Origin: a virus
Lineage: Duplodnaviria > Heunggongvirae > Uroviricota > Caudoviricetes
Virus record (IMG/VR): IMGVR_UViG_2693429700_000021
Coordinates: 1 to 7,420 of that record
Length of the DNA stretch: 7,420 bases
Strand: one strand, 5' to 3'
Part shown: piece by piece, positions 1 to 6,102 of the stretch
Numbering within the stretch: the first letter of the stretch is position 1
Layout: each line of letters starts with the position of its first letter
Notes under the pieces: model-generated
What the model was told of the DNA's origin: nothing
What the model saw: only the letters and a program-made list of their open reading frames with translations
The model's database searches: none
Position numbers and translations under genes: made by a program

Positions 1-168
1 CTGTGAGTCATATTCATCCTGACTTTCCAGAACCATACGAATCGCCCGCTGACGGACTTCGGGGGAAAAACGAGTATTTTTAGTCATCCTGTTTACCTCT
101 TTCTCAGGGAGTTTAGTCTCCAGGATTTCCGGGGCGGTTCAACCCGCTGCTTTATCGATGCCGATAAT

Positions 169-732
169 ATGCGAGCCGTCAGTGTGCTTAACCTGGGTAC
201 TATTGATGAACCAGGTCACGCAGATAACACCGCCACCCTCAAACTGAAAAAGACAGCACCGTTTTCTGCTCTGTTGTCTGTTAATGGCGAGCGTAACTCC
301 CAGAAGTCACTGGCAGAATGGATTGAAGACTGGGCCGACTACCTTGTGGGCTTTGATGCTAATGGTGACACCATTCAGGCAACCAAAGCGGCTGCGGCAG
401 TCCGTAAAATCACAATTGAAGCAAACCAGACCGCTGATTTTGAAGACAATGACTTCAGCGGCAAACGCTCTCTGATGGAGTCTGTCGAAGCGAAAACCAA
501 AGACATTATGCCAGTGGCATTTGAATTTAAATGCGTTCCGTTTGAAGGCCTGAAAGAACGTCCGTTTAAATTACGCCTCAGCATTATCACTGGCGATCGT
601 CCTGTACTGGTTCTGCGCATTATTCAGCTGGAAGCGGTGCAGGAAGAAATGGCTAACGAATTTCGTGATCTGCTTGTTGAGAAATTCAAAGACAGCAAAG
701 TAGAAACCTTTATTGGTACTTTCACCGCCTGA
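169..732 (+). CDS. Prophage protein of unknown function, probably DUF2303/YfdQ-like; N-terminus uncertain
   Basis: 187-codon ORF from ATG 169 to the stop at 730-732. The frame is open back to position 7 but has no ATG/GTG/TTG there, and no clear Shine-Dalgarno precedes 169. It lies directly upstream of a YfdR-like gene, as yfdQ does in E. coli CPS-53/KplE1. The family name rests on remembered gene order, not on an alignment. Confidence 0.6.
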
Positions 733-745
733 TTTCATTACTGCA

Positions 746-770
746 AATGCCCCTGCGGGGGCATTTATGG
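746..770 (+). terminator. Possible intrinsic terminator or attenuator between the yfdQ-like and yfdR-like genes
   Basis: Hairpin AAATGCCCC (746-754), loop TGCG, GGGGCATTT (759-767), then AT-rich TTTAT; it lies 14 nt after the stop at 732. The U-tract is short, so it may be only a partial terminator. Confidence 0.4.
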
Positions 771-860
771 AAACGTAATTAACTCAATAATCACCGGATG
801 GTGAGAGCTTCCTTTTAGCAGAATTCAGCGCGGTGCAGCGCATATAAAGTGGAGAACGAA

Positions 861-1397
861 ATGTCATTTATTAAAACTTTTTCCGGGAAGCATTTTTATT
901 ATGACAAGATAAATAAAGACGACATCGTGATTAACGATATCGCAGTTTCCCTTTCAAATATCTGTCGCTTTGCAGGACATCTTTCACACTTCTACAGTGT
1001 CGCCCAGCATGCGGTGCTTTGCAGCCAGCTGGTGCCGCAGGAATTTGCTTTTGAAGCGTTAATGCATGATGCAACAGAAGCATATTGCCAGGACATCCCC
1101 GCGCCACTAAAACGCCTTCTTCCTGACTATAAACGGATGGAAGAAAAAATAGACGCCGTAATCCGTGAGAAATACGGGTTACCCCCGGTTATGAGCACGC
1201 CTGTGAAATATGCCGATCTCATCATGCTGGCAACCGAACGCCGCGATCTCGGGCTTGATGATGGCTCTTTCTGGCCTGTACTGGAAGGCATCCCGGCGAC
1301 AGAGATGTTCAAAGTTATTCCACTGTCGCCAGGCCATGCCTATGGGATGTTTATGGAACGTTTTAACGAGTTATCGGAGTTACGCAAATGCGCATGA
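861..1397 (+). CDS. yfdR: HD-domain phosphohydrolase, YfdR-like 5'-deoxynucleotidase
   Basis: GGAG at 851-854 lies 6 nt before ATG 861, so I prefer this start to the GTG at 849 used by the ORF track; this gives 178 aa. HD-domain signature is readable: RFAGH, SVAQHAV, ALMHDATEAY with downstream Asp residues. The N-terminus MSFIKTFSGKHFYYD matches my memory of E. coli YfdR. Confidence 0.85.
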   Translation: MSFIKTFSGKHFYYDKINKDDIVINDIAVSLSNICRFAGHLSHFYSVAQHAVLCSQLVPQEFAFEALMHDATEAYCQDIPAPLKRLLPDYKRMEEKIDAVIREKYGLPPVMSTPVKYADLIMLATERRDLGLDDGSFWPVLEGIPATEMFKVIPLSPGHAYGMFMERFNELSELRKCA

Positions 1398-1903
1398 ATG
1401 TTTTCGAAATGGAAGGGTTTCTTCACGGGAGATGTGTACCGCGAGATCTGAAAGTGAACGAAACAAACGCTGAGTACCTGGTGCGTAAATTTGCTGAAGC
1501 TGAGTCCAAGTGCGCGGCGCTGGCGGCGGAGAATGCGGGGCTGAAGTCTGGCGCTATGGACGAAATCAAGGTTATCAACCGTGGAGGGCAGGCATATTGC
1601 GTAAAAGATGGAGTGCAAGTCAATCCCATGTATGCAAGAGGGTGGAATGACTATCGCGCAAAGTCTCTGCAATCAGACACCCCAGCCACCGATGCTTTCC
1701 TGGCTGAAGTACGGGCGCAGGGCGTGGATGCTGCTATAGAAGCTGCAAAAAATCTGGTGGCCCAAGAATATGAGTATAAGGATTTCAAAGCGGCACAGAG
1801 TGATTGCTGTATGCACCCTGGTTCAGACCGGGTAGGGAAGGTTGAAATGACTGAGTGGTTAGTTGACTTTGCTGCCCAGCTTCGCAAAGGAGGCAACCAG
1901 TGA
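1388..1903 (+). CDS. Hypothetical prophage early protein, possibly Ead/Ea22-like mosaic family
   Basis: 171-aa ORF whose ATG 1388 overlaps the yfdR stop (ATGCGCATGA). It ends ...KGGNQ* with its stop overlapping the next GTG start. The internal segment TPATDAFLAEVRAQGVDAA resembles segments I recall from Ea22-like prophage proteins. Confidence 0.65.
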   Translation: MRMNVFEMEGFLHGRCVPRDLKVNETNAEYLVRKFAEAESKCAALAAENAGLKSGAMDEIKVINRGGQAYCVKDGVQVNPMYARGWNDYRAKSLQSDTPATDAFLAEVRAQGVDAAIEAAKNLVAQEYEYKDFKAAQSDCCMHPGSDRVGKVEMTEWLVDFAAQLRKGGNQ

Positions 1904-2385
1904 CTGGACATGCAGCAATCCTCGACATGTGTTGTGGCAGTCGCATGTTCTGGTTCGATAAGAATGACGACCGGGCGATATTTAGCGATATCAGAAAGGA
2001 AGAGCACACATTATGTGATGGACGACGGCTGATAATTAGCCCTGACCTGATAGCAGATTTTCGTGCATTACCATTTGCAGACGCATCGTTTCCGGTTGTT
2101 GTATTCGACCCTCCGCATCTTGAGCGTGTTGGTGATAACGCCTGGATGGGAAAGAAATATGGACGACTGAATAAAGATACCTGGCGTGATGATTTGCGGC
2201 AGGGGTTTAAAGAAGCCTTTCGGGTGTTGTGGCCACACGGCGTTCTGATTTTTAAATGGAATGAAACGCAAATACCTGTTCGCCAGATATTGGCACTGAC
2301 CGACAGAAAGCCTGTTATCGGTCAACGAACAGGAAAGGGTGACAAGACCCACTGGATTATTTTTATGAAGGAGGGCAACCAGTGA
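1900..2385 (+). CDS. Small SAM-dependent methyltransferase, probably a DNA N6-adenine/N4-cytosine type
   Basis: GTG start at 1900 preceded by GGAGG (1889-1893) with a 6-nt spacer. SAM-binding motif I-like ILDMCCGSRMFW near the N-terminus and catalytic motif IV-like VVFDPPH (the (D/N/S)PP(Y/F/W/H) class). At 161 aa there is no room for a large target-recognition domain. Confidence 0.75.
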   Translation: MTGHAAILDMCCGSRMFWFDKNDDRAIFSDIRKEEHTLCDGRRLIISPDLIADFRALPFADASFPVVVFDPPHLERVGDNAWMGKKYGRLNKDTWRDDLRQGFKEAFRVLWPHGVLIFKWNETQIPVRQILALTDRKPVIGQRTGKGDKTHWIIFMKEGNQ

Positions 2386-3035
2386 GCAAGATTGACTATC
2401 AGGCACTGCGTGAGGCGGCAGAGCGTGCAATTCCGGCAATGGAACGCCTGTTAATGTTGCCAGTTGATGATGATCTGATAAGCGAACAGGAACTTAAAGA
2501 TTACGGTGTGGATATTGATGCGCTCAACGCCTTCAAATTTCTGACCGGACCAGAAACCGTGCTGGCGCTGCTGGATGAACGGGAAAGAAACCAGCAACAC
2601 ATCAAATCACGCTACCAGGAGAACGAGGATATTGCGCTAACGGTTGGGAGGCTGCTAATCGAAAACGGCCAGCTTGTTGCCGATACGCTACGCCACTTAT
2701 CTGATAACGAAATCGACTCTGATTATTTTGCTATCACCTCAACGAATGAGAACGGTACTGAAATTGATCATGAGATGGCTATTACCGATTACGCACTGCA
2801 AGCTGCCGGAACTGTAGACGAATTGGTTGCAGCGCTGGAATCCGCAGAGAAGCGTATTGCTGAACTGGAAGCGCGGGAAGTTCAATTACCGACTCGCTAC
2901 GACCTTCGATATGGACACCCGATAAATGCAGATGAGCTACATGTCATGATACCTAAAGAAAATGGCAGTTGGCTTTACCTGATTGACCTAGAACACGCAT
3001 TACGCGTCGCTGACATTCGCATCAAAGGAGAGTGA
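2382..3035 (+). CDS. Ead/Ea22-like prophage early protein
   Basis: GTG start at 2382 overlapping the upstream TGA, preceded by GGAGGG. N-terminal MSKIDYQALREAAERA, central VLALLDERE and C-terminal AEKRIAELEAREVQLP match conserved segments I recall from the Ead/Ea22-like family. Confidence 0.7.
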   Translation: MSKIDYQALREAAERAIPAMERLLMLPVDDDLISEQELKDYGVDIDALNAFKFLTGPETVLALLDERERNQQHIKSRYQENEDIALTVGRLLIENGQLVADTLRHLSDNEIDSDYFAITSTNENGTEIDHEMAITDYALQAAGTVDELVAALESAEKRIAELEAREVQLPTRYDLRYGHPINADELHVMIPKENGSWLYLIDLEHALRVADIRIKGE

Positions 3036-3036
3036 T

Positions 3037-3552
3037 ATGGCGCTAACACACCGCGAACTCTGTCAGATTGCGTACAAGTTCCTTAAGCGCAACGGGTTCA
3101 AGGTTTGTTTTCATGACCGCTTTATAGCTGTAACCAGTACCGGAGAACAGCCAGATGCTATGGGATTCAGAAATTCAGCATCATGCCTGATAGAGGCGAA
3201 GTGTTCTCGTGCTGACTTGTTGGCAGATAGAAAAAAGCGTTTTCGTAAAAATCCGTCTCTTGGAATGGGCGACTGGCGATTCTTTATTAGTGAGCCGGGA
3301 ATTATTTCAATTGAGGATTTACCACCTGGCTGGGGATTACTTCACGTTGTTAACGGAAGAGTACGGAAAGTACATGGGTGGCCCAAGGGTAATTGCTGTT
3401 GGGGTAATCCTGACGATAAGCCATTTACTGGAAATAAGCAGGTTGAATGCGATTACATGTTATCTGCATTAAGGCGCATGGAGTTGAGAGGGCACCTTAA
3501 TGAAATATATGACGGTGTAATTGTTAATAAGAAAGAAGGAAACGCGGCATGA
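3037..3552 (+). CDS. PD-(D/E)xK nuclease-like protein of unknown function
   Basis: ATG 3037 with AGGAG 6 nt upstream. N-terminal region has an upstream Glu (RELCQ), then GEQPDAMGF and, 13 residues later, CLIEAKCS, which fits the PD...(D/E)xK restriction-endonuclease-like core. The C-terminal half is Cys/Trp-rich (GNCCWGNPDD). Confidence 0.6.
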   Translation: MALTHRELCQIAYKFLKRNGFKVCFHDRFIAVTSTGEQPDAMGFRNSASCLIEAKCSRADLLADRKKRFRKNPSLGMGDWRFFISEPGIISIEDLPPGWGLLHVVNGRVRKVHGWPKGNCCWGNPDDKPFTGNKQVECDYMLSALRRMELRGHLNEIYDGVIVNKKEGNAA

Positions 3553-3950
3553 TCACTATTACCAAAGAGCGACTACTGACAATCAAGCAGTGGCGCGAAA
3601 CATACGGACCTGATAGCAACGTTGTACTGCCAGCAGAAGAAGCGGAAGAACTGGCGCGGATTGCGCTGGCATCGCTGGAAGCAGAACCGGTGGCATGGCT
3701 GCATTCAGACAATGGCTTAGGTATTCCGGCAATAACACGGAGTAAAAACGTTGCTGACAGTTGGTTATCAAAGGGTTGGTATGTTCAGCCGCTATATATA
3801 GCTCAGCCAGTACACGTGCCGGAGGAAATGAATCTGGCACGCGCACAGAAAGAGGTGGGTTTTAATCGATATATCATGGCTGGGTATGTTGATGGCTGGA
3901 ACGCCTGCCGCGCTGCCATGCTTCAGAGCCAAGGTGGAGGCAACCAATGA
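3549..3950 (+). CDS. Hypothetical prophage early protein
   Basis: 133-aa ORF; ATGA start/stop overlap with the upstream gene. It ends GGGNQ* at the conserved junction motif. No catalytic motif recognised. Confidence 0.65.
   Translation: MITITKERLLTIKQWRETYGPDSNVVLPAEEAEELARIALASLEAEPVAWLHSDNGLGIPAITRSKNVADSWLSKGWYVQPLYIAQPVHVPEEMNLARAQKEVGFNRYIMAGYVDGWNACRAAMLQSQGGGNQ
3864..3878 (+). repeat. 15-nt exact repeat ATCGATATATCATGG, copy 1, inside the 3' part of CDS 3549..3950
   Basis: Identical 15-mer recurs at 6373-6387, with flanking similarity (TTTT before; GG..TATGTT after). Confidence 0.7.
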
Positions 3951-4258
3951 GCAATTATCTGTACTGGTCTGGCTTAGTGGCTAACATCGCGCTCATGTTG
4001 TTCGTGGCTCTTTGCATCTGGGTTTGGTTTATCTGGCCTTTTGTAGAAGCCATGAGCATAACTCGGTGCTTTATTTGCGCATCAAAGACTTCTGGATGCA
4101 AACCAACTGTAAGAGCAATTATCAGAACTTTAAAATACTGGTATCTGGATTTGCTTTTCGGCAGGGGCTGGACGCGAATTAGTAACCGCCAGTTTGAATG
4201 GGAAGGCGTCGGTAACTGGCGAATTCACAGCAGCAAAGAAACGCAGGAGGTGAAGTAA
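3947..4258 (+). CDS. Small membrane protein, hypothetical
   Basis: 103-aa ORF, ATG 3947 overlapping the upstream stop, GGAGG 6 nt upstream. Strongly hydrophobic N-terminal segment LVANIALMLFVALCIWVWFIWPFV predicts one transmembrane helix (possibly two); a Cys-containing stretch CFICASKTSGC follows. Confidence 0.6.
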   Translation: MSNYLYWSGLVANIALMLFVALCIWVWFIWPFVEAMSITRCFICASKTSGCKPTVRAIIRTLKYWYLDLLFGRGWTRISNRQFEWEGVGNWRIHSSKETQEVK

Positions 4259-4830
4259 TGAATAACTTAATGATCGACCTTGAGACGATGGGGAAAAATA
4301 AGGATGCACCGATCGTTTCCATTGGCGCGGTGTTCTTCACTCCAGAAACCGGAGACATCGGACAAGAATTCTATACGGTTGTTAGCCTGGAAAGTGCTAT
4401 GGGGCAAGGAGCTACACCTGACGGCGATACCATCCTGTGGTGGTTGAAACAGAGCTCTGAAGCACGAGCTGCAATCTGTATTGATGATACTTTGTCGATC
4501 AGCGATGCACTCTCTGAACTGAGCCATTTCATTAATCAGCATGCAGACAATACAAAATATTTAAAAGTCTGGGGTAACGGGGCCACCTTCGACAACGTAA
4601 TTTTACGTGGAGCTTACGAGCGAGCAGGACAAATCTGCCCGTGGGCGTACTGGAATGACCACGATGTACGCACGATCGTTACGCTTGGGCGTTCCATCGG
4701 ATTCGACCCCAAAATGGACATGCCTTTCGATGGCGAACGGCACAACGCCCTGGCTGATGCCCGTCATCAGGCAAAATATGTTTCCGCTATCTGGCAGAAA
4801 CTAATTCCTGCCACCAGCACAGAATTATGA
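4258..4830 (+). CDS. DnaQ-like DEDDh 3'-5' exonuclease (prophage exonuclease)
   Basis: ATG 4258 overlapping the upstream TAA (TAATG), GGAGG at 4246-4250. Exo I motif MIDLETMG (D-x-E), Exo II WGNGATFDNV and Exo III HNALADARH (H-x4-D) are all present in the expected order. Confidence 0.85.
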   Translation: MNNLMIDLETMGKNKDAPIVSIGAVFFTPETGDIGQEFYTVVSLESAMGQGATPDGDTILWWLKQSSEARAAICIDDTLSISDALSELSHFINQHADNTKYLKVWGNGATFDNVILRGAYERAGQICPWAYWNDHDVRTIVTLGRSIGFDPKMDMPFDGERHNALADARHQAKYVSAIWQKLIPATSTEL

Positions 4831-4866
4831 TTTTCCCGGGTGCAGCCGGTTTTGATGGAGAAAATT

Positions 4867-5148
4867 ATGAACACCTTGTTTTTACTGATGGCTGAATTCA
4901 ATACCCCTAACATTGAACTCTCAGCAGTTAGCCAAAAGTACTTTGGCATGAGTCCAGCCACGGCAGAAGCAAAAGCAAACGCTTGTAAGTTGCCCGTTCC
5001 AACATATCGCATCGGCACATCACAAAAAGCAAAACGTTGCATCAATATTCAGGATCTTGCGGAATACATAGACAAAAGACGAGAAGAAGGACGTATCGAG
5101 TGGGAACAGGTCAGAACAAGCAAACAGAAGGGCAAAGAACATCACTAA
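4867..5148 (+). CDS. Excisionase/recombination directionality factor-like protein, PrtN/P22-Xis-like family
   Basis: The track ORF starts at GTG 4840, but GGAG (4857-4860) sits 6 nt before ATG 4867, giving MNTLFLLMAEF..., the N-terminus typical of PrtN-family excisionases. Stop at 5146-5148, followed directly by a strong terminator. Confidence 0.7.
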   Translation: MNTLFLLMAEFNTPNIELSAVSQKYFGMSPATAEAKANACKLPVPTYRIGTSQKAKRCINIQDLAEYIDKRREEGRIEWEQVRTSKQKGKEHH

Positions 5149-5150
5149 AG

Positions 5151-5177
5151 AAAAAACCCGCCTAAAGGCGGGTTTTC
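5151..5177. terminator. Bidirectional rho-independent terminator
   Basis: AAAAAA (5151-5156), stem CCCGCC (5157-5162), loop TAAA, stem GGCGGG (5167-5172), then TTTTC. This gives a U-run on both strands, between the convergent + strand excisionase-like gene and the minus-strand 57-codon ORF. Confidence 0.75.
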
Positions 5178-5195
5178 AAAAAGCACCAGCTATGA

Positions 5196-5369
5196 TCATG
5201 CTGCTTTGCGACGACGAAGCTTACCCTGCTGCTCTTTACCAGAGACAGTAGCGTGAGTGAACGCATTAGGAGCAGCCTTCATCAGAACTTCAACAGCAGC
5301 ACCCATACCTGCGAATGCTTTCATTGTGTCGAACTTAACCTGTGGCTTGGTTGCTTTTTGATCTTTCAT
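5196..5369 (-). CDS. Small hypothetical protein (57 aa), absent from the ORF track
   Basis: My own translation of the minus strand gives MKDQKATKPQVKFDTMKAFAGMGAAVEVLMKAAPNAFTHATVSGKEQQGKLRRRKAA. ATG at 5369-5367, GGGAG 6 nt upstream on the minus strand, TGA stop at 5198-5196, and the bidirectional terminator about 20 nt downstream. Confidence 0.55.
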   Translation of the reverse strand: MKDQKATKPQVKFDTMKAFAGMGAAVEVLMKAAPNAFTHATVSGKEQQGKLRRRKAA

Positions 5370-5439
5370 AGAAAACTCCCGAGACAGTAAAGGCGTCTCT
5401 AACCCTCTCTTTAAAGCTAGCTTGTTTCGCTAACTTATG

Positions 5440-5460
5440 CCAATCGATCATGTCGATTGG
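5440..5460. promoter_or_regulatory. Perfect inverted repeat CCAATCGA-N5-TCGATTGG, candidate operator
   Basis: 8-bp arms are exact reverse complements around a 5-bp spacer. It lies about 70-90 bp upstream of the small minus-strand ORF and overlaps a -35-like TTGGCA on the minus strand. No adjacent U-tract, so it is not a terminator. Confidence 0.3.
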
Positions 5461-5565
5461 TGACATCGTTTCTTAGTAGTTTAAGCACAAAACGACTGCC
5501 ATAGATGTACCTTTAAGGTAATCTGGACGGGTATCCTACAATTTGTAGCCCCTTCTCGTCTATAC

Positions 5566-6102
5566 CTACTGAGCAAATTTAAGAAAGATATCCTGCAGCT
5601 CATCAATGACTGCAGACATCACATAACCGCACTGTTCCATGCGGAAACCAAAAGACTCGTAATACTGCACCAGTTCTGGTACTGGCTCTACAATGTGGAC
5701 AACTTTACATTCAACAGCTTTACAAAATATAAAAGCACTCATAAGAGTGAGTAAAACCATGCGCCCTTTCAATGGGTGAGATTCATCTTCTCTAGAAAAC
5801 CTTTCGATCATATGGATACGAAAGATGTTTTCTTCAACCCCATAAACACAAATTGCTGCTCCTGATGGTATTCCCTGAACCCGACCTTGCTGAACAAGTT
5901 TTATGCAGAACTCATACTTTTCTCTGGAGTTGCCATAGGTGCTTAACGCATAGTCCCATTCAAGCTCACCATAGCCACCACACAGAATCTTGTAATCATC
6001 ATCACTGAGCGGACCAACAGCAAGAGGTAAGCCGACATGATCAATAATCAACTGGATATTGTTACGTACAGATTGACCTATCTCGTCTAGGGTAAGCATC
6101 AT
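5566..6102 (-). CDS. GNAT-fold-like acyltransferase candidate, atypical
   Basis: 178-aa ORF starting with tandem ATG codons (6102-6097) and ending at TAG 5568-5566. C-terminal YYESFGF resembles the conserved GNAT beta-strand (FYxxLGF), and HPLKGRMVLLTLMSAF is a weak candidate for the acetyl-CoA-binding segment. The canonical R/Q-x-x-G-x-G/A motif is not cleanly present, so the fold assignment is tentative. Confidence 0.6.
   Translation of the reverse strand: MMLTLDEIGQSVRNNIQLIIDHVGLPLAVGPLSDDDYKILCGGYGELEWDYALSTYGNSREKYEFCIKLVQQGRVQGIPSGAAICVYGVEENIFRIHMIERFSREDESHPLKGRMVLLTLMSAFIFCKAVECKVVHIVEPVPELVQYYESFGFRMEQCGYVMSAVIDELQDIFLKFAQ

What the first reader, a model, noticed from the sequence alone, without database searches (positions are those of the whole stretch)
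1900..3552. Small methyltransferase and PD-(D/E)xK nuclease-like gene in the same early operon
A 161-aa methyltransferase with DPPH-type motif IV sits two genes upstream of a protein with a PD...ExK core, separated by an Ea22-like gene. Phage early-operon methyltransferases often act as anti-restriction (orphan) methylases, and a PD-(D/E)xK protein in the same operon could be a nuclease acting on host or competitor DNA, or a recombination helper. Neither function is established for these particular proteins.
Basis: inference. Interest (0 to 1): 0.5.

Follow-up and report, generated by a model that had tools for sequence, protein, structure and literature searches.

The report
Prophage methylase and MmcB-like nuclease
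Two ordinary accessory genes of a decayed E. coli lambda-like prophage, a small and very widely conserved phage methyltransferase and a small nuclease-fold protein distantly related to the MmcB DNA-repair nuclease, lie in one operon through mosaic gene shuffling and not as a working pair.

Summary
A 161-aa ORF (1900-2385) carries SAM-methyltransferase motifs, including an invariant DPPH. An Ead/Ea22 gene follows (2382-3035). Then comes a 171-aa ORF (3037-3552) with D40...E53-x-K55.

The methyltransferase belongs to a very widespread small temperate-phage family (PHROG 954; PADLOC MTase_II/orphan-MTase models). Members are about 50% identical from E. coli to Listeria, Streptococcus and Gordonia phages. 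It has no target-recognition domain, no partner nuclease and no experimental characterisation that I could find.

The two genes are not a system. Each occurs in about 17% of complete E. coli genomes, but they are rarely together (0/80, 2/80 and 1/33 loci). All ORFs from 169 to 5148 are co-directional, mostly with overlapping stop/start codons, as in an early-left operon ending at xis.

One loose end remains. In 113 non-clonal loci, DNA methyltransferases of six unrelated families lie within 1 kb of this nuclease family about 2.4 times more often than random placement predicts.

Verdict: new members of known kinds, low interest, biochemical functions still inferred.

The parts
169..5148 (+). 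Co-directional gene string of a defective lambdoid (CPS-53/KplE1-like) prophage: truncated yfdQ, yfdR, phrog_614, methyltransferase, Ea22, nuclease-fold gene, phrog_60, phrog_2531, 3'-5' exonuclease, PrtN/TorI-type excisionase
   Evidence: ORFs; Pfam and PHROG assignments; synteny with NZ_CP148401.1, where the string starts on the repressor-gene side; no + strand promoter-like site in the scan of 1-5600
1889..1903 (+). Junction motif GGAGGCAACCAGTGA: the last codons (G-G-N-Q-stop) of the upstream gene, a Shine-Dalgarno sequence, and the overlapping GTG start of the methyltransferase
   Evidence: 3 copies in the window against 0.12 expected; the same 15-mer is in 49 of 208 fetched loci, always on the gene strand
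1900..2385 (+). 161-aa small phage SAM-dependent methyltransferase (PHROG 954; RefSeq WP_000145666.1)
   Evidence: phrog_954 E 2.8e-88; PADLOC MTase_II E 7.3e-74 and oMTase E 1.5e-49; Methyltransf_11 matched by 12 of 15 family members at E <= 0.05, above the curated cut-off in six of the ten scanned one by one
1921..1941 (+). Motif I (LDMCCGS), the predicted SAM-binding loop
   Evidence: L8, D9 and G13 are invariant across 15 diverse homologues
2107..2118 (+). Motif IV, DPPH, the predicted catalytic pocket for an exocyclic amino group
   Evidence: D70, P71, P72 and H73 are invariant. In homologues this segment aligns with positions 2-65 of Pfam N6_N4_Mtase, below threshold
2371..2385 (+). Second copy of the junction motif (GAGGGCAACCAGTGA), at the methyltransferase/Ea22 boundary
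2382..3035 (+). 217-aa Ead/Ea22-like protein (mosaic variant)
   Evidence: PF13935 E 5.7e-26 and phrog_250 E 7.5e-66. PGAP splits it into two 'partial' pseudogenes although the ORF is continuous
3037..3552 (+). 171-aa PD-(D/E)xK-fold protein, MmcB-like (PHROG 9263/631), 100% identical to YP_009907841.1 of phage Lys12581Vzw
3154..3156 (+). Codon of D40, the predicted metal-binding Asp at the start of strand beta2
   Evidence: Invariant in 49 sequences; beta2 spans residues 41-45 in the model; aligns with the Asp of 'RVDVMG' in 3dnx
3193..3201 (+). Codons of E53-A-K55, the predicted (D/E)xK at the end of strand beta3
   Evidence: Conserved in at least 90% of 49 sequences; beta3 spans residues 48-54; aligns with 'IECK' of 3dnx
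3936..3950 (+). Third copy of the junction motif (GGAGGCAACCAATGA)
5152..5177 (.). Strong G+C-rich hairpin just after xis, the likely end of the operon
   Evidence: 11-bp stem with 6 G-C pairs, reported on the - strand. The stem is palindromic, so it also forms in the + strand transcript; only the - strand reading was shown to be followed by a T run

Best explanation
The region holds three independent, exchangeable accessory genes of the leftward early operon of a decayed E. coli lambdoid prophage.

(1) The 161-aa protein is a minimal class I SAM-dependent methyltransferase. Motif I (LDMCCGS), D30 and D53-F54 would bind SAM. The invariant DPPH would hold a flipped base whose exocyclic amino group is methylated. 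The most likely product is N6-methyladenine or N4-methylcytosine in DNA. It would be made early after induction or infection, so that progeny DNA is protected from restriction enzymes of the next host. It has no cognate nuclease, so it is an orphan.

(2) The Ea22-like gene is unrelated filler of the same variable slot.

(3) The 171-aa protein is a stand-alone metal-dependent PD-(D/E)xK nuclease of an MmcB-like clade. D40 and E53 would hold the metal and K55 would activate water. It most likely cuts damaged or branched DNA during phage replication and recombination.

Shown here: the ORFs, the motifs and their conservation, the fold of (3), the family memberships and the lack of linkage. Inferred only: that the methyltransferase substrate is DNA, that (3) has nuclease activity, and both biological roles.
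For: Methyltransferase:
- phrog_954 'DNA methyltransferase' E 2.8e-88.
- PADLOC MTase_II E 7.3e-74 and orphan-MTase E 1.5e-49.
- 12 of 15 diverse homologues match Methyltransf_11 and 11 of 15 match Methyltransf_25; 5 of 15 show sub-threshold N6_N4_Mtase matches confined to the motif IV-VI segment.
- Motifs I, II, III and IV are invariant.
- The family occurs in 256 phage records, at 45-65% identity in Streptococcus, Listeria A118, Enterococcus, Lactobacillus, Gordonia, Vibrio and Acinetobacter phages, within replication or early modules and with no constant neighbour.

Nuclease:
- AF2 model with the canonical alpha-beta-beta-beta-alpha-beta core.
- 3dnx is a PF06319 MmcB-like member (E 7.5e-32).
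- The family profile hits 3dnx at E 2.5e-4 and aligns D40 and ExK-SR-DF-AD.
- 5 of 49 members touch PF06319 weakly.
- BFVD fold hits include phage proteins named MmcB-like (E 4e-6 to 1e-4).
- Catalytic residues are conserved.
- MmcB is described as a PD-(D/E)xK endonuclease that protects Caulobacter from mitomycin C (PMC9578287).

Independence of the two genes:
- 0 of 80 loci carrying a >=99% identical nuclease gene have the methyltransferase within 6 kb.
- 2 of 80 methyltransferase loci have the nuclease.
- 1 of 33 species-level loci has both.
- 944 and 928 of 5,426 E. coli genomes carry each gene. In the ranked list, the record at about rank 58 of 3,356 already covers only one of the two genes, so fewer than about 57 records hold both in one place.
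Against: - No member of either family has been assayed, as far as my searches show.
- The methyltransferase could not be modelled (pLDDT 51), so its fold rests on sequence profiles alone. The window protein itself scores just under the Pfam cut-offs.
- The enzyme has no target-recognition domain and is about 50% identical across phyla, which is unusual for sequence-specific DNA methylases. A non-DNA substrate is therefore not excluded.
- The nuclease family fails the Pfam MmcB-like threshold, and Foldseek against PDB gave no significant match (best E 0.02).
- In 113 non-clonal loci, DNA methyltransferases of six unrelated families lie within 1 kb of this nuclease family in 12 loci against 5.0 expected (P about 4e-4). 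'Fully independent' may therefore be too strong at the level of gene classes.
Confidence: 0.7

Rival explanations
1. The methyltransferase and the PD-(D/E)xK protein form a restriction-modification-like or otherwise obligate two-gene system. The nuclease would attack unmodified DNA and the methylase would protect the phage.
For: - They lie in one operon, 650 nt apart.
- Two IMG/VR loci (L128, L131) have homologues of both genes directly adjacent.
- About a dozen or more E. coli genomes carry both within about 2 kb.
Against: - Co-occurrence is 0/80, 2/80 and 1/33. Each gene is in about 17% of E. coli genomes, but they are rarely in one place.
- The nuclease gene is 99-100% conserved in Stx-type phages that lack the methylase. 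A restriction enzyme without its methylase would be lethal.
- An unrelated Ea22 gene separates them here.
Confidence: 0.04
2. The small methyltransferase does not modify DNA. It would methylate a conserved host or phage RNA or protein amino group, in the way the small RsmD-type m2G or PrmC-type enzymes do, which also carry (D/N)PP(F/Y) motifs. This would explain why it needs no target-recognition domain and is so conserved across phyla.
For: - It is only 154-170 aa with no variable domain, and about 50% identical from Proteobacteria to Firmicutes and Actinobacteria phages.
- The weak PDB profile hits include the RsmD-family methylase HI0767 and a UPF0020 methyltransferase (E about 1) alongside a DNA methylase.
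- No methylation motif has been assigned to the family in the literature I searched.
Against: - The segment from DPPH to 'RVLxPxG' aligns with the start of the DNA-specific N6_N4_Mtase model in 5 of 15 members (best E 2.8e-4).
- PADLOC models of restriction-modification and orphan methyltransferases recognise it strongly.
- It lies in replication or recombination modules of phages.
- PamA, a 141-aa phage enzyme, methylates GATC, so very small size does not exclude DNA methylation (PMC12435837).
Confidence: 0.15
3. The 171-aa protein is a structure-specific recombination nuclease, a Holliday-junction or flap resolvase like archaeal Hjc. It would act with the phage recombination functions and not as a lesion-repair nuclease of the MmcB type.
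For: - 4 of 49 family members weakly match Pfam Hjc (best E 1.3e-4).
- Hjc chains appear among the profile and fold hits.
- It is small, as a homodimeric resolvase would be.
- Neighbours in other species include NinG, RusA, RdgC and DnaC-like genes.
Against: - The matching prophage already encodes RusA.
Confidence: 0.2
4. The 171-aa nuclease is a weapon. It would be a superinfection-exclusion or defence effector, or a host-DNA degrading enzyme, carried as a moron.
For: - It lies in the variable accessory slot of early operons, on prophages, phage-plasmids and conjugative elements.
Against: - There is no PADLOC hit.
- There is no sensor, immunity or antitoxin partner, and no conserved neighbour.
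- It is co-transcribed with lytic-cycle early genes and is not set apart as an independently expressed lysogenic cassette.
Confidence: 0.1

Closest known systems
MmcB / Pfam PF06319 MmcB-like (structure 3dnx, SPO1766 of Ruegeria pomeroyi)
   Different: Only about 23% identical. The window protein does not reach the Pfam model, and only 5 of 49 relatives touch it weakly. It has extra conserved blocks (GMGDWRF, LPxGWGLL, KPFxxNKQxE) that were not aligned with SPO1766. It is carried on mobile elements, whereas MmcB is a chromosomal SOS-regulated gene.
Archaeal Holliday-junction resolvase Hjc (PF01870)
   Same: Small PD-(D/E)xK nuclease. Weak sequence and fold matches.
Orphan DNA methyltransferases of temperate phages (concept reviewed by Murphy et al. 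2013, cited in PMC8637289)
   Same: A stand-alone methylase gene in an early or replication module with no endonuclease partner. Recognised by PADLOC's orphan-MTase model.
   Different: Much smaller than Dam/D12, N6_N4 or C5 enzymes. No target-recognition domain. Motif IV is DPPH rather than DPPY, NPPY or SPPY. Specificity is unknown.
PamA of S. aureus prophage mPhi11 (141 aa, NPPY, methylates GATC; PMC12435837)
   Same: A tiny prophage methyltransferase with motif IV near residue 65. It shows that a DNA adenine methylase can be this small.
   Different: Not homologous. hhalign probability is 0.5%. A phage protein that matches PamA at E 8.5e-10 falls in the Dam family PF05869; PamA itself was not scanned against Pfam.
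Beta-class N6/N4 DNA methyltransferases (PF01555; e.g. TTHA0409, PDB 2zie)
   Same: The stretch from motif IV to 'RVLKPxG' aligns with profile positions 2-65.
   Different: The motif order is permuted. Here motif I precedes motif IV, whereas in PF01555 it follows. Matches are below the curated cut-off.
Lambda/Stx-phage exo-xis and ea region (Ea22, Ea8.5, orf60a-73)
   Same: Same kind of location: a string of small, exchangeable, mostly uncharacterised genes between the recombination genes and xis. An Ea22 homologue lies between the two genes.
   Different: The two genes studied here are not among the exo-xis genes examined experimentally in the papers I read.

Membership tests
Class I SAM-dependent methyltransferase fold (Pfam Methyltransf_11/25) | Score above the curated Pfam cut-off | tested here: inconclusive
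   The window protein scores 19.9 bits against a cut-off of 21.2 (Methyltransf_11), and 17.2 against 27 (Methyltransf_25). Homologues at 50-60% identity pass Methyltransf_11 (about 29 bits). 12 of 15 members match it at E <= 0.05.
Class I SAM-dependent methyltransferase fold | Rossmann-like seven-strand fold seen in a structure | tested here: inconclusive
   The AF2 model had pLDDT 51 and pTM 0.49, which is unusable.
Amino-methyltransferases (N6-A, N4-C, N2-G) | Motif IV (D/N/S)PP(Y/F/W/H), preceded by motif I and by acidic motif II and III residues | tested here: met
   LDxxxG (residues 8-13), D30, D53-F54 and D70-P-P-H73 are all invariant across 15 diverse homologues.
DNA methyltransferase N6_N4_Mtase (PF01555) | Full-length match above the cut-off with motif order IV...I | tested here: not met
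   Only partial matches to profile positions 2-65, at 15.7-21.4 bits against a cut-off of 26.7, and none for the window protein itself. The motif order is I...IV.
PHROG 954 / PADLOC MTase_II (PDLC03288) | Strong full-length profile match | tested here: met
   E 2.8e-88 over residues 3-160; E 7.3e-74 over residues 6-160. The family names are annotations and not assays.
Restriction-modification system | A cognate endonuclease gene that consistently accompanies the methylase | tested here: not met
   0/80, 2/80 and 1/33 co-occurrence with the PD-(D/E)xK gene. Neighbours vary in 10 diverse phages.
Any DNA methyltransferase | Demonstrated methyl transfer to DNA and a recognition motif | not testable with these tools
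   This needs a methylome or an in vitro assay. No report was found.
PD-(D/E)xK phosphodiesterase superfamily | An alpha-beta-beta-beta-alpha-beta core with Asp at the start of beta2 and (D/E)xK in beta3 | tested here: met
PD-(D/E)xK phosphodiesterase superfamily | Conservation of the catalytic residues across the family | tested here: met
   D40 is invariant. E53 and K55 are conserved in at least 90% of 49 sequences down to about 36% identity.
Pfam PF06319 MmcB-like | Score above the curated cut-off (22 bits) | tested here: not met
   The window protein has no match at E <= 0.1. 5 of 49 relatives match weakly, best E 2.9e-4.
Pfam PF06319 MmcB-like | Closest structural and profile similarity to a bona fide member | tested here: met
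MmcB function (protection against mitomycin C and cisplatin) | A DNA-damage phenotype and endonuclease activity | not testable with these tools
   Only the literature description of Caulobacter MmcB is available.
Ead/Ea22 (PF13935), middle gene | Pfam match above the cut-off | tested here: met
   92.2 bits against a cut-off of 27.

The most novel reading that the evidence does not exclude
The MmcB-like nuclease family has 2,614 clusters at 50% identity, has no Pfam model, and is carried by prophages, phage-plasmids and conjugative elements. It may be loosely tied to DNA methylation in function. In 113 non-clonal loci, methyltransferases of six unrelated families (C5, N6_N4, D12, Dam, MT-A70 and the small DPPH type) lie within 1 kb of it 2.4 times more often than random placement predicts. 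It could be a repair or processing nuclease that mobile elements pair with whatever methylase they carry. For example, it might remove lesions or stalled intermediates created by methylation, or by the DNA damage that induces the prophage.

Separately, the DPPH methyltransferase has no recognition domain and is conserved across phyla. It might have one universal target, either near non-specific DNA methylation or a conserved RNA or protein site.
Probability: 0.12. Interest if true: 0.55.

Novelty: new member of a known kind. Interest (0 to 1): 0.2.

Why it matters
The practical gain is in annotation. A protein present in about 17% of complete E. coli genomes, including Shiga-toxin-type phages, is labelled 'hypothetical' or wrongly flagged as a frameshifted pseudogene in RefSeq records. 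It can now be described as an MmcB-like PD-(D/E)xK nuclease with an identifiable active site.

The small DPPH methyltransferase is one of the most widely spread phage methylase families, and it still has no assigned specificity. One methylome experiment would annotate thousands of prophage genes at once.

Showing that the two genes are not a system prevents a false 'new restriction-modification or defence pair' lead.

Tried and rejected
- Structure prediction of the methyltransferase from a 19-sequence alignment failed (pLDDT 51).
- Single-sequence and profile searches of PDB with the methyltransferase gave only generic or insignificant hits: 1ve3 at E 0.002, and RsmD-like 2ift and TTHA0409 at E about 1.
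- I tested whether PamA, the characterised tiny phage Dam, is a relative of the methyltransferase. It is not (hhalign probability 0.5%).
A2 was used instead.
- The look-up of encoding contigs returned one place for a divergent homologue and was not pursued.
- Literature searches for the accession, for a 'DPPH motif', for Ea22 plus methyltransferase, and for orphan phage methylases found no experimental work on either family.
- The restriction-modification pair hypothesis was rejected on distribution.
- The PGAP 'frameshifted' flag on the 171-aa gene was checked and rejected. The ORF is intact and identical to an annotated phage gene.
Full report

The + strand ORFs are listed below.

| Coordinates | Assignment |
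|---|---|
| 169-732 | truncated DUF2303/YfdQ |
| 849-1397 | YfdR HD-domain 5'-deoxynucleotidase |
| 1388-1903 | phrog_614, unknown function |
| 1900-2385 | methyltransferase |
| 2382-3035 | Ead/Ea22 |
| 3037-3552 | the PD...ExK candidate |
| 3549-3950 | phrog_60, unknown function |
| 3947-4258 | phrog_2531, unknown function |
| 4258-4830 | Rv2179c-like 3'-5' exonuclease |
| 4840-5148 | excisionase |

DPPH occupies residues 70-73 (nt 2107-2118). PD occupies residues 39-40, and ExK residues 53-55 (nt 3151-3156 and 3193-3201).

The genes have overlapping stop/start codons (GTGA at 1900 and 2382, ATGA at 3549 and 3947). The scan of 1-5600 found no promoter-like site on the + strand. The one strong hairpin follows xis at 5152-5177. 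A weaker terminator-like hairpin lies on the + strand at 2222-2245, inside the methyltransferase gene; I did not follow it up, and the scan found no more such sites than shuffled sequence does. A single transcription unit is therefore the simplest reading. 'Early' rests on synteny.

**The methyltransferase.** The window protein scores just under Pfam's generic Methyltransf_11 and Methyltransf_25 cut-offs. It is a full-length member of PHROG 954, 'DNA methyltransferase' (E 2.8e-88). It also matches PADLOC's Type II methyltransferase and orphan-methyltransferase models (E 7.3e-74 and 1.5e-49). RefSeq calls it a class I SAM-dependent methyltransferase (WP_000145666.1).

- *Size of the family.* The large protein collection holds 7,828 clusters at 90% identity. 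There are 256 phage records. Members in phages of Streptococcus (including T12), Listeria (A118), Enterococcus, Staphylococcus, Lactobacillus (A2), Gordonia, Porphyromonas, Vibrio, Acinetobacter and Mannheimia are 45-65% identical over the whole length.
- *Conserved residues.* In a 15-sequence alignment across these hosts, the invariant residues are L8-D9, G13 (motif I), D30 (motif II), D53 (motif III), D70-P-P-H73 (motif IV) and the block F103...E105...R108-V-L...G114...F118-K-W. There is no variable region that could serve as a target-recognition domain.
- *Pfam matches of homologues.* Of the 15 homologues, 12 match Methyltransf_11 and 11 match Methyltransf_25. Five give sub-threshold matches to the DNA-specific N6_N4_Mtase model. 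Those matches are confined to profile positions 2-65, the segment from motif IV to 'RVLKPxG'. Motif I precedes motif IV here, so the order is not that of the beta class.
- *Neighbours.* They differ from phage to phage: a DnaD-like loader, an integrase, an excisionase, a primase, an HNH endonuclease, or a second large methylase. No endonuclease partner is conserved.
- *What could not be done.* The AF2 model was unusable (pLDDT 51), and profile searches of PDB returned only generic hits. I found no experimental paper on this family. The A118 record's note 'methylates cytosine residues' is an annotation in the record.
- *A functional analogue.* PamA of S. aureus mPhi11 is a 141-aa prophage enzyme with NPPY that methylates GATC (PMC12435837). 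It shows that such small DNA methylases can be active. PamA is not related to this family (hhalign probability 0.5%).

My reading is an orphan DNA amino-methyltransferase (m6A or m4C), at roughly two chances in three. A non-DNA target is the main alternative.

**The 171-aa protein.** Pfam, NCBIfam, PADLOC and PDB sequence searches with the single protein found nothing. PHROGs 9263 and 631 (unknown function) match strongly. An exhaustive HMMER search of cluster representatives found 2,614 clusters at E <= 1e-3, so this is a large family without a Pfam model.

- *Model.* A 32-sequence alignment gave a usable AF2 model (pLDDT 76, pTM 0.71). Its elements run helix 5-18, strands 22-25, 41-45 and 48-54, helices 58-71, and strand 80-85. 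This is the alpha-beta-beta-beta-alpha-beta core of PD-(D/E)xK nucleases. D40 lies just before beta2, and E53 and K55 lie at the end of beta3.
- *Profile search.* A profile of 49 diverse family members hits 3dnx at E 2.5e-4. It aligns PD-x-x-G with RVDVMG, and LIECK-SR-DF-AD-K with VIECKSSRADFQADAK. Five of the 49 members touch PF06319 weakly and four touch Hjc.
- *Viral structures.* Foldseek against BFVD returns phage proteins named 'MmcB-like DNA repair protein' at E 4e-6 to 1e-4. Foldseek against PDB was not significant.
- *Conservation.* D40, D60, G78, R81, W99 and E137 are invariant. E37, E53, K55, S57, D64, K67, R70, R146 and R147 are nearly so.
- *The gene is intact.* It is 100% identical to YP_009907841.1 of phage Lys12581Vzw and 99% identical to a cluster of 1,363 sequences. 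The 'frameshifted' flag that PGAP places on its first 179 nt in two RefSeq records is an annotation artefact.
- *What MmcB is.* It is described as an SOS-regulated PD-(D/E)xK endonuclease that protects Caulobacter against mitomycin C and cisplatin (PMC9578287).

I conclude that the protein is a stand-alone nuclease of an MmcB-like clade. It is not a formal PF06319 member. Its substrate is unknown. Lesion or branched-DNA processing during phage replication is the most economical guess, and an Hjc-like resolvase role is the nearest rival.

**Are the two genes a pair? No.**

| Sample | Result |
|---|---|
| 80 IMG/VR loci with a >=99% identical nuclease gene | none has the methyltransferase within 6 kb |
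| 80 methyltransferase loci (65-98% identity) | 2 have a nuclease homologue, directly downstream |
| 33 loci from different species | 1 has both |

Among 5,426 complete E. coli genomes, 944 carry the methyltransferase gene and 928 carry the nuclease gene; 248 of the nuclease gene's matching places are on plasmids, and the one examined looked like a phage-plasmid. Only one record covers 80% of the 1900-3552 segment. In the ranked list the record at about rank 58 of 3,356 already covers only one of the two genes, so fewer than about 57 records hold both. In Stx-type phages the order is ea22, then this gene, then eaA/DUF551, with no methylase. A restriction enzyme could not spread without its methylase, so that model is rejected.

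**How the mosaic is built.** The 15-mer GGAGGCAACCA(G/A)TGA occurs three times in the window, at 1889, 2371 (one mismatch) and 3936, against 0.12 expected. It encodes the C-terminal G-G-N-Q-stop of one gene, a Shine-Dalgarno sequence, and the overlapping start of the next. The same 15-mer is present in 49 of the 208 loci fetched, always on the coding strand. In the loci I checked, it sits at the start of an Ea22-type or methyltransferase gene. This pattern is consistent with a conserved gene boundary at which modules are exchanged. It would also explain why these two genes ended up in one operon here.

**A loose end.** I looked at the nuclease family outside the E. coli clone, in 33 species-level loci and 80 diverse viral loci.

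- Its neighbours are heterogeneous. They include Ea22, DUF551, NinG, RusA, RdgC, DnaC-like, NA37 and F-type conjugation genes.
- Recognisable DNA methyltransferases of six unrelated families lie within 5 kb in 19 of the 113 loci. They lie within 1 kb in 12 loci, on either side of the nuclease gene.
- Random placement of the nuclease gene inside the same loci predicts 5.0 loci within 1 kb (P about 4e-4).
- Eighty-three per cent of the loci have no methylase nearby, and 79 of the 80 E. coli-type loci have none.

This may only reflect the clustering of DNA-metabolism accessory genes in one hot spot. The test does not correct for phylogeny or for the position of core genes. I record it as unexplained.

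**Verdict.** Observation confirmed; interpretation partly supported. Both proteins are new, uncharacterised members of known kinds. One is an orphan phage methyltransferase. The other is an MmcB-like PD-(D/E)xK nuclease. They share an operon by mosaic recombination and are not a system. Interest is low (0.2). The useful outputs are a better annotation for a common 'hypothetical' E. coli prophage gene and two cheap experiments, a methylome and a nuclease assay.

Noticed in passing
window 1889-1903, 2371-2385, 3936-3950: The junction 15-mer GGAGGCAACCA(G/A)TGA recurs (3 copies against 0.12 expected). It encodes G-G-N-Q-stop, a Shine-Dalgarno sequence and the overlapping start of the next gene. 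The same 15-mer is in 49 of 208 fetched loci, always on the coding strand; in the loci checked it sits at Ea22 or methyltransferase gene starts. It looks like a conserved module boundary for mosaic exchange.
   Followed up: partly
window 3037-3215; L001 10203-10381; L209 3501-3679: In two RefSeq records PGAP annotates the first 179 nt of the intact 171-aa gene as a 'frameshifted hypothetical protein' pseudogene. The ORF is complete and 100% identical to YP_009907841.1 of phage Lys12581Vzw. This looks like a recurring annotation artefact.
   Followed up: partly
window 2382-3035: The Ea22-like ORF is continuous (217 aa), but PGAP splits it into two 'partial' pseudogenes. It appears to be a mosaic of an Ead/Ea22 N-terminal domain and a different C-terminal module.
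   Followed up: no
window 1-342: Window 1-141 matches the end of IS1203 and 142-342 an upstream part of yfdQ. The arrangement differs from the otherwise identical genome NZ_CP148401.1, where the IS lies 201 bp further downstream in yfdQ. The yfdQ ORF at 169-732 is truncated at its N-terminus (it matches DUF2303 positions 84-269).
   Followed up: partly
window 5566-6102 (- strand): A 178-aa ORF in a low-GC stretch (about 41-43%) lies between the xis hairpin and the dusA fragment at the prophage end. It has no Pfam, NCBIfam or PADLOC match. It may be a cargo (moron) gene.
   Followed up: partly
L173-L205 and L211-L290 (nuclease-family loci): DNA methyltransferases of six unrelated families lie within 1 kb of the MmcB-like nuclease gene in 12 of 113 non-clonal loci, against 5.0 expected from random placement within the loci (P about 4e-4). 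In at least four loci the two genes abut or nearly abut (L181, L182, L198, L204).
   Followed up: partly
P0129, P0228 and other 248-aa relatives of the methyltransferase: Many Enterobacterales homologues are 248 aa long. They carry an extension of about 88 aa fused at the point where the window protein ends (...GNQ-stop), which suggests read-through or fusion across the junction motif.
   Followed up: no
P0263 (428 aa), P0330, P0364, P0370, P0384 (272-325 aa): Some distant members of the nuclease family are fused to extra domains. One of the 49 sequences scanned matches TniB (E 3.2e-6). These fusions could hint at partners or substrates.
   Followed up: no
L001 209-862: The same prophage carries a second, unrelated methylase (a phage N6-adenine methyltransferase of the Dam type) next to RusA in its other arm.
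   Followed up: no
window 4258-4830: This ORF is an Rv2179c-like DEDD 3'-5' exo(ribo)nuclease (PF16473, E 1.9e-75) just upstream of xis. It is common in these early operons and its role in phage biology was not examined.
   Followed up: no
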